Part shown: piece after piece, positions 2,500 through 61,058 of the stretch
Layout: each line of letters opens with the position of its first letter
Numbering within the stretch: position 1 is the stretch's first letter
From: Escherichia phage vB_EcoM_JQD51
Direction: 5' to 3' (one strand)
Length of the DNA: 64,000 nt
Sequence record: PV204681
Position numbers and translations under genes: made by a program
Notes under the pieces: model-generated
What the model saw: only the letters and a program-made list of their open reading frames with translations
Told to the model about the DNA's origin: nothing
Databases searched by the model: none

Positions 2500-2765
2500 T
2501 TGATGTCCTCGATTTTGGTTACGGTTCTATTATAAGCCACTTCATCTAGAAGCGATTTCAGCGTTTTCTGATAAGTGGTAATCCATTTACCGAGTCCTTC
2601 AACATAGTATTCTGAAATGTAGATGAACCCTTGTTCAACACACTCTTTAAATATTTCTGCGTCTTTTACTGAACGAAACAACGGCCAGTCTCGAAAGAAC
2701 ATGTTAACATGACCGTAGTCACGTGTGGTGTTTTTGCCATCTGTAATATCATGAACTACAAACAT
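2496..2765 (-). CDS. Hypothetical protein (30.1 position)
   Basis: 89-aa ORF, 4-nt overlap with ligase start, codirectional. Confidence 0.5.
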   Translation of the reverse strand: MFVVHDITDGKNTTRDYGHVNMFFRDWPLFRSVKDAEIFKECVEQGFIYISEYYVEGLGKWITTYQKTLKSLLDEVAYNRTVTKIEDIK

Positions 2766-2774
2766 AATTAACCC

Positions 2775-3590
2775 TTAACAATTTGTAGACCAAGTCCATT
2801 TGGACGAATCTAAAGGAAAGTTTTGAATCGTCCACCATGGCCGCATATCGGTTGGTCCTTGAATTCGCCAGGTATACGGATTCGACGGAGCGCCAATTTG
2901 ATTAGGCCATGCACCTGGACTTGTTGTACCAGATTCTTTAAGCAAATCCGCCAATCGTTTTAAAAGGTCTTCACGATCTGAATCTGAATTATGCTCGGGT
3001 GGAACCAAACGAGATTCAATATCATCCCACGTGTGTACACGTTGTGCAGTACGAGGAATGGCATCACGTTCACCACGAGCCAACCAATAAATCGGTACAT
3101 TAAGAATTTCTGCTGCATGGTCGCAATGATGAGCTAAATCGTCAACGTAACAAATCACGTTATATTTTGTTTTAGCTAGTTCGAATAATTGTTCCTTTGA
3201 CGAATCATGACCACACATCATTACTTCAGAAAAAGCGCCTGGGAACAAAGCATTCAAATTAAATTGTCTATTCAATCGAGCATCAATTGAATCACCTAGC
3301 GCCGTCACGGCTACAAAATTATAGTCTTCTTTTAGTTTATTGATAACTCGAAGAGCATCCGAATAAGGCGCTAAGTAACGAATAAAATCAGAGCTATTAT
3401 ATTTTTCTATTAATTGTTTACCAAGGTTATCGTCGGTATTGAACAGTTTACCAGGAGAAATAAATTTTTCGTCCTGAATCATTTTTAAAATATGTTCTAA
3501 TGGAAGATTATATTTTTGGGCAAAATAAGGAAGTCCAGATTGCCAGCTTAAACATACACCATCAATATCAGTCAAAATAGTAGGCTTCAT
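2775..3590 (-). CDS. HAD-superfamily hydrolase-like protein (30.2 position)
   Basis: 271-aa ORF; N-terminal ILTDIDGV matches HAD motif I (DxDG[TV]). Confidence 0.55.
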   Translation of the reverse strand: MKPTILTDIDGVCLSWQSGLPYFAQKYNLPLEHILKMIQDEKFISPGKLFNTDDNLGKQLIEKYNSSDFIRYLAPYSDALRVINKLKEDYNFVAVTALGDSIDARLNRQFNLNALFPGAFSEVMMCGHDSSKEQLFELAKTKYNVICYVDDLAHHCDHAAEILNVPIYWLARGERDAIPRTAQRVHTWDDIESRLVPPEHNSDSDREDLLKRLADLLKESGTTSPGAWPNQIGAPSNPYTWRIQGPTDMRPWWTIQNFPLDSSKWTWSTNC

Positions 3591-4054
3591 AAAGAGTCTC
3601 TTAATAGGTTTAACACATCAATAAATTCAGCTTCAGTTAATATTGTATCATCTTTTGTTAGGTGGCTGGCCATGCTGTGCTTCAAAATTTTTCCTTTAGA
3701 GGCTTGTAAGGCGTCGCGAAACCCCTTGTTTTGGATCGCTGCTTCAAAATATGCATTTGTATATAATTCTTTCCATGCTTCAGAGTATCTTGAAAATGGA
3801 ACTCCTAACCAGAAGAGAGTCCCATGGTCCTGAGCTCTTGCATAAGACCTTCCAGCTTGCTGTGCGGCCAGTCCTGACAGCCCAAATATACGTCTTTGTT
3901 GTTCAACATTTTTCACCTTACATCCTTGGAGAAATCCTTCAAGACCTCCGAATTGAATACCATCCATAACGAAAGGCCACTGGGCAAAATTACTTAATGC
4001 GCATGACGGCCATTTGAAATTGCTTCTTATTTCTAATTCAGACATCTTTAACAC
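3587..4054 (-). CDS. NADAR (YbiA-like, DUF1768) domain protein (30.3 position)
   Basis: 155-aa ORF; LSNFAQWPF...G.QF...EGFLQGCK pattern typical of NADAR/YbiA family; assignment by motif memory. Confidence 0.5.
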   Translation of the reverse strand: MLKMSELEIRSNFKWPSCALSNFAQWPFVMDGIQFGGLEGFLQGCKVKNVEQQRRIFGLSGLAAQQAGRSYARAQDHGTLFWLGVPFSRYSEAWKELYTNAYFEAAIQNKGFRDALQASKGKILKHSMASHLTKDDTILTEAEFIDVLNLLRDSL

Positions 4055-4250
4055 TTATAATTTCAACATCAGCCCAATGTCCGTAACTAGGCAGACGGTC
4101 TTCAATAGATAAACCACCGTCATTTTTAAGCATTTTAATTGTCTTGATAAACGGTTCATCCTGTGGATGAATAGGCGAGCAGTCTGTTACACGATAAGTA
4201 ACTTCGATCATTTCCGTACCAAACAATTTCTGGATTAATTTATTCAACAT
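4038..4250 (-). CDS. Hypothetical protein
   Basis: 70-aa ORF in codirectional tight array. Confidence 0.4.
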   Translation of the reverse strand: MLNKLIQKLFGTEMIEVTYRVTDCSPIHPQDEPFIKTIKMLKNDGGLSIEDRLPSYGHWADVEIISVKDV

Positions 4251-4437
4251 GTTTCAACCCTTTAATAGGAGATAACTCTTTACCCATACGTATGTCAGAA
4301 GTCCAATCAACCCATTGAACAGCATACGCTTCATTGATAATTCCAGCGCCGGTTTTAAATTCAGGGAGAACTTTAAAAATCACCCCAGGAATTCCAACAC
4401 CTTTTAATTGAACTGTTTGTGCTATTAAAAATTTCAT
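4240..4437 (-). CDS. Hypothetical protein
   Basis: 65-aa ORF; early promoter immediately upstream (4462-4492). Confidence 0.4.
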   Translation of the reverse strand: MKFLIAQTVQLKGVGIPGVIFKVLPEFKTGAGIINEAYAVQWVDWTSDIRMGKELSPIKGLKHVE

Positions 4438-4461: not shown

Positions 4462-4492
4462 ATTATACTCTAATCCGTCCTTGGATGTAAAC
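4462..4492 (-). promoter_or_regulatory. T4-type early promoter (GTTTAC -35 / TATAAT -10), dyad ccaaggacgg in spacer
   Basis: Plus-strand attata...gtaaac with 18-19 nt spacing; same architecture repeated at 50943 and 51501. Confidence 0.55.
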
Positions 4493-5106
4493 TACTTAAC
4501 GAAATTAATTTCTACCGGATGAACAACAGGTTGAGCAGTGATATATTGAGTAATTGCTTTCATGACTAGAGCTTCAGAACCAGGATTTTTCTCAACGAAT
4601 TCACGTGCTTGGTTATGAGCTTCAAGTTCACTTAGTAAACCACTTCGCTGGCATCCACGGTCTTGAGTACCTTGTTCAGATAAAAAGACGACGATGTATT
4701 TTTCATCGTCATACGGTTTAGACGGTTGAGCAAATGTTCCTTTACTTCCAAAAGGAGAGTTATGACGCCACATCACGCCGTGAGGAGTTTCAACCTTCGT
4801 ATATTCGTGCGGGCCATTTTTCTTAGTTTCTTGATGTGGAACTTCGTGGACCTTAGGGTTAGGACATTCAATAAAATGCTCATCTAAATCGGTCGAGAAT
4901 ATTAAAGTAAAACAATTACTGAATTTACCAACACCTGCCTGATAAATTTTACCTTCAGAAGTTCTAATTTCACAAACCGAGCCGGCATCAGTAACTTCTA
5001 AAACTTCAAAAGGCTCGATAAGGTCATATGAGAACATGTTTTTAAGGCGTGGAGTAATATCCCCATTTTTAAAATTCATTTTATAAAAAGTATTAACTTT
5101 AAACAT
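4492..5106 (-). CDS. Hypothetical protein (about 204 aa; GSVCEI motif)
   Basis: ORF track 4492..5136; start moved to Met at 5106 with SD gagga; shares GSVCEI motif with 5142..5507. Confidence 0.5.
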   Translation of the reverse strand: MFKVNTFYKMNFKNGDITPRLKNMFSYDLIEPFEVLEVTDAGSVCEIRTSEGKIYQAGVGKFSNCFTLIFSTDLDEHFIECPNPKVHEVPHQETKKNGPHEYTKVETPHGVMWRHNSPFGSKGTFAQPSKPYDDEKYIVVFLSEQGTQDRGCQRSGLLSELEAHNQAREFVEKNPGSEALVMKAITQYITAQPVVHPVEINFVK

Positions 5107-5118
5107 AATTTCCTCAGT

Positions 5119-5134
5119 GGGAGCCGAAGCTCCC
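5119..5134 (-). other. Intercistronic UUCG-tetraloop hairpin without U-tract
   Basis: GGGAGC-cgaa-GCTCCC inverted repeat between stop of 5142..5507 and SD of next gene. Confidence 0.5.
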
Positions 5135-5141
5135 AATTAAA

Positions 5142-5507
5142 TTAGATATCGAATTCGTTCAGAACTACATCAAAGATTGCTTCCAGGTGTTCAGGTTTAG
5201 CTCGGTTACTCAGGATATGACGAATCCAAGTTTTAACCAGAAGTTTACGATTAACACCGTTCCAGCAAGGATGAGTACCTAAATCACGTTGACGGAAATC
5301 GTCATCTAATGCAATTTTGAAGTTGGAACCTTCCATCGTGATTGAAACCGTGATGCCATTTTCAAATCGCATATAAACATAATTAGGAGTCATGCACTGC
5401 TCAATTTCACATACTGAACCATTTTTATGCTTCCACAAACAAACCATATCGATAGAACCAGCGATACCGTTAGAAACATATTTGCGTTCGAAGTTGGTGT
5501 AGTTCAT
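5142..5507 (-). CDS. Hypothetical protein (GSVCEI...CMTP motifs)
   Basis: 121-aa ORF; paralog-like motifs shared with neighbours. Confidence 0.5.
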   Translation of the reverse strand: MNYTNFERKYVSNGIAGSIDMVCLWKHKNGSVCEIEQCMTPNYVYMRFENGITVSITMEGSNFKIALDDDFRQRDLGTHPCWNGVNRKLLVKTWIRHILSNRAKPEHLEAIFDVVLNEFDI

Positions 5508-54744: not shown

Positions 54745-55353
54745 TCAGTAACTGACAATAGACAGATTCCAGATTGTATAACGTCCATCTTGAATAATAG
54801 AATCTACACGCAGTGTAGTCCCTATAGGGAGCATAAATTCACATTCGTCAGATATAAGTCTAGCATTAGACCGTCTTGTCGCTTCAGGGAAAGCTCCATT
54901 GAACTCACAAGATGGCGCAGCCAGAATCATGTTAAGCATATGTTCACGGAAGTTGAAAGCAAATGGTGCATCTTTGATGCAGAACATATTAAATGTTCCG
55001 TAAAAATTATACGAAGCAAAGTTACGTGCTACACCGAACACTGGGCTGAAGCTCATTACTCTGTCAAATTTAATAATACTACCAATACCTTTATCATCGA
55101 GTGTGGCCATAGTTTTCTTAGAGATTCCACGATACATTGTCTCAGGAACAGAAGACGTCCAATTTCTACGAACGATTGAACTTAACTCCTGTTGAATACA
55201 GTCTGGCTTGTTTTCCATACACTGCCACAGTACACTTTGTTCAATGTCGCTGAATTGACTATCAATTTCGTACTGCAATACATCTTGATATTCGGGGTTT
55301 TGAGCACGACGAACCATTTCTTCAATTTCACACTCGTTATACGGCATAAACAT
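54745..55353 (-). CDS. modA: ADP-ribosyltransferase ModA-like (R-S-ExE class)
   Basis: 202-aa ORF; YRG ... SFS ... ECEF motif order; first of a tandem pair downstream of modB-like. Confidence 0.6.
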   Translation of the reverse strand: MFMPYNECEIEEMVRRAQNPEYQDVLQYEIDSQFSDIEQSVLWQCMENKPDCIQQELSSIVRRNWTSSVPETMYRGISKKTMATLDDKGIGSIIKFDRVMSFSPVFGVARNFASYNFYGTFNMFCIKDAPFAFNFREHMLNMILAAPSCEFNGAFPEATRRSNARLISDECEFMLPIGTTLRVDSIIQDGRYTIWNLSIVSY

Positions 55354-55412
55354 TTAGGTTTCTCCTCACGTTTCGATAAAGTAATCATAACACCGTCTGT
55401 GGTGGTTGTAAA

Positions 55413-55994
55413 CTAAAAATTCAACATCTTTAAGTGAATGATTTTGTATACTCGAGACAAAGGGTCATACTCTAACTCTTCGATTTCCACAATCTCAAAT
55501 CTAGAGATACTTGAAACCATGTACTCTTGTTCAGATTCAATCATATCTAGGACATCAACACGTGTTTCTTCCATAACATGCTTAGGGTTCTTTCCGGCGA
55601 GTACAATATTAACCATGTTTTGGTAGTAATCAAAAATGAATGGAGCATTCCTGAGACTAAGAATAGTGTACGTCTGATATTCCCATCTCCCAGAGAATTG
55701 ACGAGCTGTACTGAAATCAGTTGTGAACGATGTTACTCGTCCAGGAGACCAATGGCATCCAACAGAAAGAAGGGAAAGACGTTCTACTTCTTCTGGAGTT
55801 ACACCACGGTAGAGTTCTACTGGTACTGTAGAAGTCATATGCTTACGAACAAGATGGTCTAATTCATAGTGGAAATCCGGGTCTTCCTTAGAATCGGTGC
55901 AAGCCCAGAGAATGTTTTGTTCTTGGTGGGTGAATTTGCTATCAATCAGATTTGTTAGGTATTCACGTTCTTGAAGTTCAGATTGACATGTCAT
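55413..55994 (-). CDS. modB: ADP-ribosyltransferase ModB-like (R-S-ExE class)
   Basis: 193-aa ORF; LYRG ... SFT ... EQEY motif order; paralog of adjacent modA-like. Confidence 0.55.
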   Translation of the reverse strand: MTCQSELQEREYLTNLIDSKFTHQEQNILWACTDSKEDPDFHYELDHLVRKHMTSTVPVELYRGVTPEEVERLSLLSVGCHWSPGRVTSFTTDFSTARQFSGRWEYQTYTILSLRNAPFIFDYYQNMVNIVLAGKNPKHVMEETRVDVLDMIESEQEYMVSSISRFEIVEIEELEYDPLSRVYKIIHLKMLNF

Positions 55995-60398: not shown

Positions 60399-61058
60399 TT
60401 AACCTCGATTCATAAATGCATTAAATATTTGGTCATCAACAGAAATTTCTAATTCGACTTCAATTGTTTCAGCCTTTTCTTCAGGTGGTAATTCGTATCC
60501 ACACACTACAATTTTTTCATCGATATCAAAATATACAGAAGCAATACGATTAATGTTACTTTCAGTTAAGTCTAAATCAACATCAACATCTTTTTGACCT
60601 ACACTTAAAGGATAACTAATACGGGTTATTTTATTATCTTTAACAAAGAGTCCACCAACATACTCTGTACTACGTTTGAAGTTTACACGTTTCCGAATTG
60701 AAAGATATGATACATCTTTACCGTGAGCTCGGCTCATAGGACATAATGAATAGCTAGAATATGAGATGTCAAATCCTACACCTTCAATATGAGCCAACGT
60801 GTCATGAGTAAACCAATTATAATCATATGCCAAATCCATTATATTGTAATATGTGAAAGGCACAGGATTAACATCATACGTTGTACCTTTAAAATCTGCC
60901 CAGGCAACGATTTCGTTATCTTTAACAATTACAAAAATTACACCAATATGGTATCCGTTATTATTTTCATTCGGCGTTATATTATAACATTGTGCATTAG
61001 GAAATTTACCATATTTAAACGGCGCGTTTTTGTGCATGTAATAAATCATATTATTCAC
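60399..61058 (-). CDS. Hypothetical protein (61.2 position)
   Basis: 219-aa ORF. Confidence 0.45.
   Translation of the reverse strand: MNNMIYYMHKNAPFKYGKFPNAQCYNITPNENNNGYHIGVIFVIVKDNEIVAWADFKGTTYDVNPVPFTYYNIMDLAYDYNWFTHDTLAHIEGVGFDISYSSYSLCPMSRAHGKDVSYLSIRKRVNFKRSTEYVGGLFVKDNKITRISYPLSVGQKDVDVDLDLTESNINRIASVYFDIDEKIVVCGYELPPEEKAETIEVELEISVDDQIFNAFMNRG

What the first reader, a model, noticed from the sequence alone, without database searches (positions are those of the whole stretch)
3587..4054. NADAR-domain protein in the ligase-proximal early cluster of a phage encoding several ADP-ribosyltransferases
The 155-aa ORF has the NADAR/YbiA-type signature (LSNFAQWPF...EGFLQGCK). NADAR domains are linked to NAD/ADP-ribose metabolism and to reversal of ADP-ribosylation. 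The phage carries ModA-like and ModB-like ARTs (54745-55994) and an Alt-like gene at the window start, so this could be a self-protective or regulatory ADP-ribosyl hydrolase. It is co-located with a HAD-like phosphatase (2775-3590).
Basis: partly seen in the sequence, partly recalled or inferred. Interest (0 to 1): 0.45.

Follow-up and report, generated by a model that had tools for sequence, protein, structure and literature searches.

The report
Phage anti-DarT enzyme AdfN (gene 30.3)
This gene is an intact copy of the T4-type phage gene 30.3 (adfN), a small, already characterised enzyme that strips ADP-ribose off guanines in phage DNA to defeat the bacterial DarTG1 defence, so the finding is real but not new.

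Summary
The ORF is real. It lies on the minus strand at 3587-4054; the likely start is the ATG at 4045, giving 152 aa. It matches Pfam PF08010 (Phage_30_3) at E=4e-69 and is 96% identical to T4 gp30.3, with the same gene order (ligase, 30.1, 30.2, 30.3, 30.4).

T4 gp30.3 is already characterised as AdfN. It removes ADP-ribose from guanine in DNA, is dispensable on plain E. coli K-12, and is required on hosts carrying DarTG1.

The window comes from an RB69-like phage (Mosigvirus). It lacks RB69's inactivating T insertion and keeps the C-terminal helix. Its second anti-DarT gene, adfA, has the RB69-type R164 allele reported as ineffective, so AdfN is probably its only working anti-DarTG1 factor.

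Verdict: already known; low interest.

The parts
3587..4045 (-). adfN (gene 30.3) coding sequence, 152 aa plus stop.
3917..3940 (-). Codons for E36 to K43 (EGFLQGCK), the catalytic Glu/Lys motif.
   Evidence: E36 and K43 are invariant in 64 relatives. The motif aligns with YbiA EHYFQAQK. E36A and K43A reduce T4 AdfN function (PMC11825919).
3677..3679 (-). Codon for H123, the phage-type third catalytic residue. YbiA-type NADARs have Glu here and DarG1 has Asp.
   Evidence: Invariant in the 64-sequence alignment. The literature describes His at this position in phage NADARs.
3593..3634 (-). C-terminal helix, residues 138-151. It is intact here and lost in RB69.
   Evidence: AF2 secondary structure shows helix 138-151. 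The DNA alignment shows RB69's extra T after codon 137 is absent here. Truncating T4 AdfN at this point reduces activity.
3587..3590 (-). ATGA overlap: the adfN stop codon (TGA, 3589-3587) overlaps the 30.2 start codon (ATG, 3590-3588), consistent with translational coupling.
   Evidence: Sequence. T4 has the same 4-nt overlap.
4038..4045 (-). 8-nt overlap between the end of 30.4 and the adfN ATG.
   Evidence: T4 has the same arrangement.
4462..4491 (-). Candidate sigma-70-type early promoter (TTTACA, 18 nt, TATAAT; 11 of 12 matches) in the gap upstream of 30.5. It could drive 30.5-30.4-adfN-30.2.
   Evidence: Consensus scan only. The total number of promoter-like sites in the region is not above shuffled controls, so this is weak evidence.
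2775..3590 (-). Gene 30.2, a HAD-superfamily phosphatase-like protein immediately downstream. This is context; no functional link is shown.
   Evidence: Family invariants D8, D10, T96, K132, D150, D151. Pfam HAD_2 E=0.013, below threshold. 5 of 43 relatives hit PF00702 and 3 of 43 hit NT5C. It lies within 6 kb of adfN in only about 22 of 80 loci.
60399..61037 (-). adfA (gene 61.2), the other known anti-DarT1 factor, here with the RB69-type R164 allele.
   Evidence: PF23813 at E=3e-118. Alignment with RB69 (R164) and HX01 (H164). R164 is reported as unable to neutralise DarT1.

Best explanation
The gene is the ortholog of T4 gene 30.3 (adfN, anti-DarT factor NADAR) in an RB69-like phage (Mosigvirus JS09 group).

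Proposed mechanism:
1. It is expressed with the early 30.x cluster.
2. In a host carrying the DarTG1 toxin-antitoxin defence, the DarT1 toxin ADP-ribosylates guanines in phage DNA and blocks replication.
3. AdfN, a minimal NADAR-fold enzyme, binds the ADP-ribosyl-guanine and hydrolyses the N-glycosidic bond. This releases ADP-ribose and restores the base, so replication proceeds.
4. E36 and K43 position the distal ribose and the diphosphate. H123 takes the place of the Glu or Asp found in other NADARs. The C-terminal helix (138-151) is needed for full activity.

This allele keeps all of these features. The phage's adfA carries the reportedly ineffective R164 allele, so AdfN is probably its only working anti-DarTG1 factor.

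What is shown and what is inferred:
- Shown here: orthology, fold, conserved catalytic residues, an intact C-terminus, and purifying selection.
- Shown elsewhere, for the 96%-identical T4 protein: the enzymatic activity and the anti-DarTG1 phenotype.
- Inferred: that this allele behaves the same way.
For: - Family: PF08010 at 231 bits.
- Orthology: 96% identity to T4 gp30.3, with E36, K43 and H123 kept, and the same gene order as T4 and RB69.
- Intact allele: no RB69 T insertion.
- Conservation: E36, K43 and H123 are invariant in 64 relatives. dN/dS is 0.046 against T4, and the protein is 95-97% identical to T4-type (Tequatrovirus-like) alleles while most flanking genes are only 37-72% identical.
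- Literature: T4 and T2 lacking adfN cannot plaque on DarTG1 hosts, and ectopic adfN rescues RB69. The purified protein removes ADPr from DarT1-modified DNA, whereas the E36A mutant does not (PMC11825919). It hydrolyses G-ADPr but not T-ADPr in vitro (PMC11125620). Transposon sequencing shows adfN is non-essential on K-12 and that insertions are lost with DarTG1 (bioRxiv 10.1101/2025.11.20.689424).
- adfA allele: R164.
Against: - Nothing was measured on this particular allele. It differs from T4 at six residues (K11R, H74R, E89P, I120V, M125I, H128G), none of them catalytic.
- A single-sequence hmmscan does not reach the Pfam NADAR model PF08719, and phmmer against the PDB finds nothing. The superfamily link rests on fold and on the family profile.
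- T4 AdfN fails to detoxify DarT1 in uninfected cells and only partly rescues phages outside the Tevenvirinae. The mechanism is therefore incomplete: a phage-specific cofactor or context remains unidentified.
Confidence: 0.9

Rival explanations
1. One reading: the NADAR erases or tunes ADP-ribosylation written by the phage's own Alt, ModA and ModB, which modify arginines on RNA polymerase and other host proteins. On this view it serves self-protection or temporal regulation.
For: - Alt, ModA and ModB are all present in the same genome.
- Alt starts about 2.8 kb from adfN.
- Iyer et al. 2022 note that phage NADARs in T4-like phages are early genes alongside the ARTs.
- I found no test of NADARs on Arg-ADPr proteins in the papers read.
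Against: - T4 and T2 adfN deletions, and transposon insertions in adfN, have no defect on E. coli K-12, where Alt, ModA and ModB all act.
- The known substrates are guanine-ADPr in DNA and RNA only, not thymidine- or cytidine-ADPr.
- ModA and ModB lie about 51 kb away.
- The 30.3 family occurs in 1510 phage records, against 1058 with a detectable ModB-like gene. Aeromonas, Acinetobacter and Vibrio phages carry 30.3 in numbers but do not appear among the main ModB-bearing groups.
Confidence: 0.04
2. A broader or additional role: removing guanine-ADPr from RNA, or countering host guanine-targeting ADP-ribosyltransferase toxins other than DarT1.
For: T4 NADAR also reverses G-ADPr on RNA in vitro, though less efficiently than the E. 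coli C7 NADAR. The family is kept under strong purifying selection across very diverse hosts, which may reflect more than one pressure.
Against: I found no in vivo evidence for this. The only conditional phenotype reported is with DarTG1.
Confidence: 0.1
3. A YbiA-like metabolic N-glycosidase (riboflavin-intermediate damage control), or a scavenger of soluble ADPr-derived immune signals.
Against: The Glu that defines the YbiA subfamily is His here. Direct biochemistry and genetics on the T4 ortholog point to DNA G-ADPr.
Confidence: 0.02
4. An inactive remnant, as in RB69.
For: The phage is RB69-like, and RB69's allele is frameshifted.
Against: The frame is intact through the C-terminal helix and the T insertion is absent. 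dN/dS is 0.046.
Confidence: 0.02

Closest known systems
T4 gp30.3 / AdfN (anti-DarT factor NADAR; Pfam PF08010 Phage_30_3)
   Same: 96% amino-acid identity, the same 152-aa length, the same position between 30.2 and 30.4, the same E36/K43/H123 residues, and an intact C-terminal helix.
   Different: Six conservative, non-catalytic substitutions. The genomic background is a Mosigvirus whose adfA is the R164 type.
RB69 gp30.3 (truncated, non-functional AdfN)
   Same: The closest genomic background, and 96% identity over the shared 137 residues.
   Different: RB69 has a T insertion after codon 137 that removes the last 15 residues. The window does not have it.
DarG1, the NADAR antitoxin of DarTG1 (e.g. 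Geobacter lovleyi NADAR, 8bat; E. coli C7 NADAR)
   Different: No adjacent darT gene, no N-terminal extension, and His instead of Asp at the third catalytic position. The T4 ortholog cannot replace DarG1 in uninfected cells.
E. coli YbiA (2b3w) and Phytophthora nicotianae NADAR (8bau)
   Different: 13-21% sequence identity. They have Glu where this protein has His. YbiA also has a role in riboflavin metabolism and can remove C-ADPr, which the T4 phage NADAR cannot.

Membership tests
Gp30.3 / AdfN family (PF08010) | Match to the family profile above the curated threshold | tested here: met
   231.1 bits against a cut-off of 36, E=4.2e-69, covering profile positions 1-138 of 138.
Gp30.3 / AdfN family (PF08010) | Orthologous position in the ligase-30.1-30.2-30.3-30.4 cluster of Tevenvirinae | tested here: met
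   Same order and same overlaps as T4 and RB69.
Gp30.3 / AdfN family (PF08010) | Histidine at the third catalytic position (last strand) | tested here: met
   H123 is invariant in 64 relatives. The literature defines phage NADARs by this His.
Gp30.3 / AdfN family (PF08010) | Full-length protein including the C-terminal helix needed for full activity | tested here: met
   152 aa, helix 138-151 modelled, no RB69 frameshift.
Gp30.3 / AdfN family (PF08010) | Confers resistance to DarTG1; hydrolyses guanine-ADPr on DNA | not testable with these tools
   Shown only for the T4 ortholog.
NADAR superfamily | NADAR fold (helical core flanked by two small beta-sheets) | tested here: met
   [not shown]
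NADAR superfamily | Sequence match to Pfam PF08719 (NADAR) | tested here: not met
   No PF08719 hit at E<=0.1 for this protein. Indirect links only: the family profile hits YbiA at E=0.0049, and one relative (P0081) carries both PF08010 and PF08719 hits.
NADAR superfamily | Conserved catalytic Glu and Lys (E43/K50 in Phytophthora nicotianae NADAR) | tested here: met
   E36 and K43 are invariant and align with YbiA's E..K motif.
DarG1 antitoxin (DarTG1 toxin-antitoxin system) | Encoded next to a darT1 toxin gene | tested here: not met
   [not shown]
DarG1 antitoxin (DarTG1 toxin-antitoxin system) | N-terminal extension and Asp at the third catalytic position | tested here: not met
   The protein is the 152-aa core only, with His123. 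The literature agrees.
YbiA subfamily | Glu in the last strand (E125 in Phytophthora nicotianae NADAR numbering) | tested here: not met
   His123 occupies this position.

The most novel reading that the evidence does not exclude
Published work leaves one question open: T4 AdfN works fully only during T-even phage infection, so an unidentified phage factor may be required. The most novel reading my data do not exclude is that this factor is the downstream HAD-like gp30.2.

Two observations fit it:
- 30.2 overlaps adfN by the 4-nt ATGA, consistent with translational coupling.
- Its distribution across phage genomes mirrors that of adfN: 1441 against 1510 records, with near-identical counts per host genus.

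The two proteins might then act as a two-step module, with AdfN removing ADP-ribose and 30.2 processing a phosphorylated product or stabilising AdfN.
Probability: 0.06. Interest if true: 0.5.

Novelty: already known. Interest (0 to 1): 0.15.

Why it matters
The practical value is in annotation. Nearly every GenBank record lists this gene as "hypothetical protein", and the nearest relative, vB_EcoM-ZQ3, does not annotate it at all although its DNA is identical. It can now be labelled adfN, a DNA guanine ADP-ribosylglycohydrolase that counters DarTG1.

For this phage the genotype predicts a phenotype. An intact adfN combined with adfA-R164 predicts resistance to DarTG1 that depends on adfN alone, unlike its relative RB69, which is sensitive. 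This matters for host-range prediction and phage-therapy design, but it opens no new biological question.

Tried and rejected
- **Single-sequence searches.** hmmscan against Pfam returned only PF08010, not PF08719. NCBIfam gave nothing. phmmer against the PDB gave nothing even at E<=10. The superfamily link therefore had to come from a family profile and from fold comparison.
- **30.2 and adfN as a conserved two-gene module.** Rejected at the level of adjacency. A 30.2 homolog lies within 6 kb of adfN in only about 22 of 80 viral loci, although the two families have similar genome-level distributions.
- **HAD assignment of 30.2 from solved structures.** The family profile against the PDB was not significant (2jao 5'(3')-deoxyribonucleotidase, E=0.73). 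The assignment rests on the motif invariants and on weak Pfam hits in a few relatives.
- **T4's overlapping ORF 30.3'.** It is interrupted by a stop codon in this window, so it is not a conserved feature.
- **An adfN frameshift in vB_EcoM-ZQ3.** I suspected one because the gene is unannotated there. The DNA is identical, so it is only an annotation gap.
- **BASEL phages Bas46 and Bas47.** I looked for their accessions to link this allele to an experimentally DarTG1-resistant Mosigvirus. No supplements were held as text and the text searches did not give accessions.
- **Promoter and terminator scan.** Counts were not above shuffled controls. One good promoter-like site sits upstream of 30.5.

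Full report
**Observation**

It contains the quoted motifs. The real start is most likely the ATG at 4045, giving 152 aa:
- T4 and RB69 annotate that start.
- It overlaps the stop of the upstream gene 30.4 by 8 nt, exactly as in T4.
- The GTG codon is GCA in T4.

The stop codon overlaps the start of the next gene in an ATGA.

The gene is clearly coding:
- Pfam PF08010 (Phage_30_3) scores 231 bits against a cut-off of 36.
- It matches PHROG 652.
- tblastn finds relatives in 1510 phage records.
- dN/dS against the T4 allele is 0.046 at dS 0.62.

**Source and context**

The window is a T4-like phage of the genus Mosigvirus (RB69/JS09 group). The best match is vB_EcoM-ZQ3 at 99.8% identity.

The gene order on the minus strand is:

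| Gene | Coordinates | Notes |
|---|---|---|
| alt | 764 to the window edge | N-terminal 254 aa only |
| alt.1 | not mapped exactly | assigned from the RB69 gene order |
| ligase (gene 30) | 1006-2499 | |
| 30.1 | 2496-2765 | DUF3045 |
| 30.2 | 2775-3590 | HAD-like |
| 30.3 | 3587-4045 | the finding |
| 30.4 | 4038-4250 | |
| 30.5 | 4240-4437 | |
| 214-aa ORF | 4492-5136 | not in T4 or RB69 |
| 30.7, 30.8, ..., rIII, 31, cd | further along | |

This follows. ModA (54745-55353) and ModB (55413-55994) are confirmed by PHROG 832 and by RB69's annotation. Alt is confirmed by PHROG 802.

**What the protein is**

It is 96% identical to T4 gp30.3, and to RB69 gp30.3 over the 137 residues RB69 retains.

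A single-sequence scan does not reach the Pfam NADAR model PF08719, the PDB or NCBIfam. I therefore tested the NADAR claim two other ways.
- **Family profile.** A 64-sequence alignment, searched as a profile against the PDB, has one hit: E. coli YbiA, E=0.0049. The alignment pairs EGFLQ..K with YbiA's EHYFQAQK.

E36, K43 and H123 are invariant in all 64 relatives. They correspond to the catalytic Glu and Lys and to the position that separates the subfamilies: Glu in YbiA-type, Asp in DarG1, His in phage NADARs (PMC11543638 and PMC11125620). The NADAR fold is therefore confirmed, and the protein belongs to the phage (gp30.3) branch.

**What it does**

The function has been published for the T4 ortholog. 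Johannesman et al. (Nat Commun 2025, PMC11825919) mapped DarTG1 resistance of T-even phages to gene 30.3 and renamed it adfN. They reported:
- T4 and T2 lacking adfN cannot plaque on DarTG1 hosts.
- Ectopic adfN rescues RB69.
- The purified protein removes ADP-ribose from DarT1-modified DNA, whereas the E36A mutant does not.
- E36A, K43A and the RB69-type C-terminal truncation all reduce function in vivo.

Other studies agree:
- T4 gp30.3 hydrolyses G-ADPr but not T-ADPr on ssDNA (PMC11125620).
- It does not remove C-ADPr (PMC12945103).
- It also acts on RNA G-ADPr, less efficiently than the E. coli C7 NADAR (PMC11833690).
- A transposon-sequencing study found 30.3/adfN non-essential on E. coli K-12, with insertions completely lost in the presence of DarTG1 (bioRxiv 10.1101/2025.11.20.689424).

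**What is specific to this window**

RB69, the type Mosigvirus, carries a T insertion after codon 137 that truncates AdfN and makes RB69 sensitive to DarTG1. The window lacks that insertion and encodes the full C-terminal helix.

The window also carries the other anti-DarT1 factor, adfA (gene 61.2, PF23813, 60399-61037). Its residue 164 is Arg, as in wild-type RB69, whereas HX01 has His. The R164 allele is reported as unable to neutralise DarT1.

The genotype is therefore the one the paper describes for the RB69 relatives Bas46 and Bas47. These have an ineffective adfA and a full-length adfN, and they are DarTG1-resistant. I infer that AdfN is this phage's only working anti-DarTG1 factor.

AdfN is also unusually constrained. 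It is 95-97% identical to T4-type (Tequatrovirus-like) alleles, while most neighbouring genes are only 37-72% identical; 30.7 is the one exception, at about 94%. The high dS shows this is selection, not recent transfer.

The fold and the general chemistry (reversal of ADP-ribosylation) are right. The proposed targets, the phage's own Alt/ModA/ModB marks, are not supported:
- adfN mutants grow normally on hosts without DarTG1, where those transferases are active.
- The known substrates are guanine bases, not arginines.
- The 30.3 family (1510 records) is more widespread than detectable ModB-like genes (1058) or Alt (1201). It is common in Aeromonas, Acinetobacter and Vibrio phages, which do not appear among the main ModB-bearing groups.
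- I found no test of Arg-ADPr substrates in the papers I read, so a side activity cannot be excluded. I give it about 4%.

**The HAD-like neighbour**

30.2 has the four HAD motifs as family invariants: D8-x-D10, T96, K132, D150-D151. Database hits are weak:
- Pfam HAD_2 at E=0.013.
- 5 of 43 relatives hit PF00702 and 3 of 43 hit NT5C.
- The family profile against the PDB is not significant.

It lies within 6 kb of adfN only in the closer T4-like lineages, about 22 of 80 viral loci. Yet its genome-level distribution (1441 records) tracks adfN's almost genus by genus. That fits either two near-core Straboviridae genes or a functional link.

The published requirement for an unknown T-even-specific factor for full AdfN activity makes 30.2 a candidate worth one experiment. 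I have no positive evidence for it.

**Verdict**

The feature is real, correctly recognised as NADAR-like, and already characterised in the literature as AdfN. It is an ordinary ortholog in a new genomic background. Novelty: already known. Interest: low.

Noticed in passing
[not shown]
   Followed up: partly
window 60399-61037 (-): adfA (gene 61.2, PF23813) carries Arg at position 164, the wild-type RB69 allele reported as unable to neutralise DarT1. The close relative HX01 has His164.
   Followed up: yes
window 3682-3909 (-), frame of T4 gene 30.3': T4 annotates an overlapping out-of-frame ORF, 30.3', inside 30.3. In this window the same frame is interrupted by a stop codon, which argues against 30.3' being a conserved gene.
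   Followed up: yes
L085 (MW630116.1, vB_EcoM-ZQ3), locus 2688-3146: The nearest relative has identical adfN DNA, but its GenBank record leaves the gene unannotated. Most other records call it a hypothetical protein.
   Followed up: yes
window 4492-5136 (-): A 214-aa ORF (TTG start, phrog_17531, function unknown) sits where T4 and RB69 have gene 30.6. This appears to be a variable slot in the 30.x cluster. One metagenomic contig (L004) shares it at 97% identity.
   Followed up: no
window 5142-5507 (-) (gene 30.7): Like adfN, gp30.7 is far more conserved between this phage and T4-type (Tequatrovirus-like) loci (93-96% amino-acid identity) than the genes around it (37-72%). This suggests another strongly constrained early protein of unknown function.
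   Followed up: no
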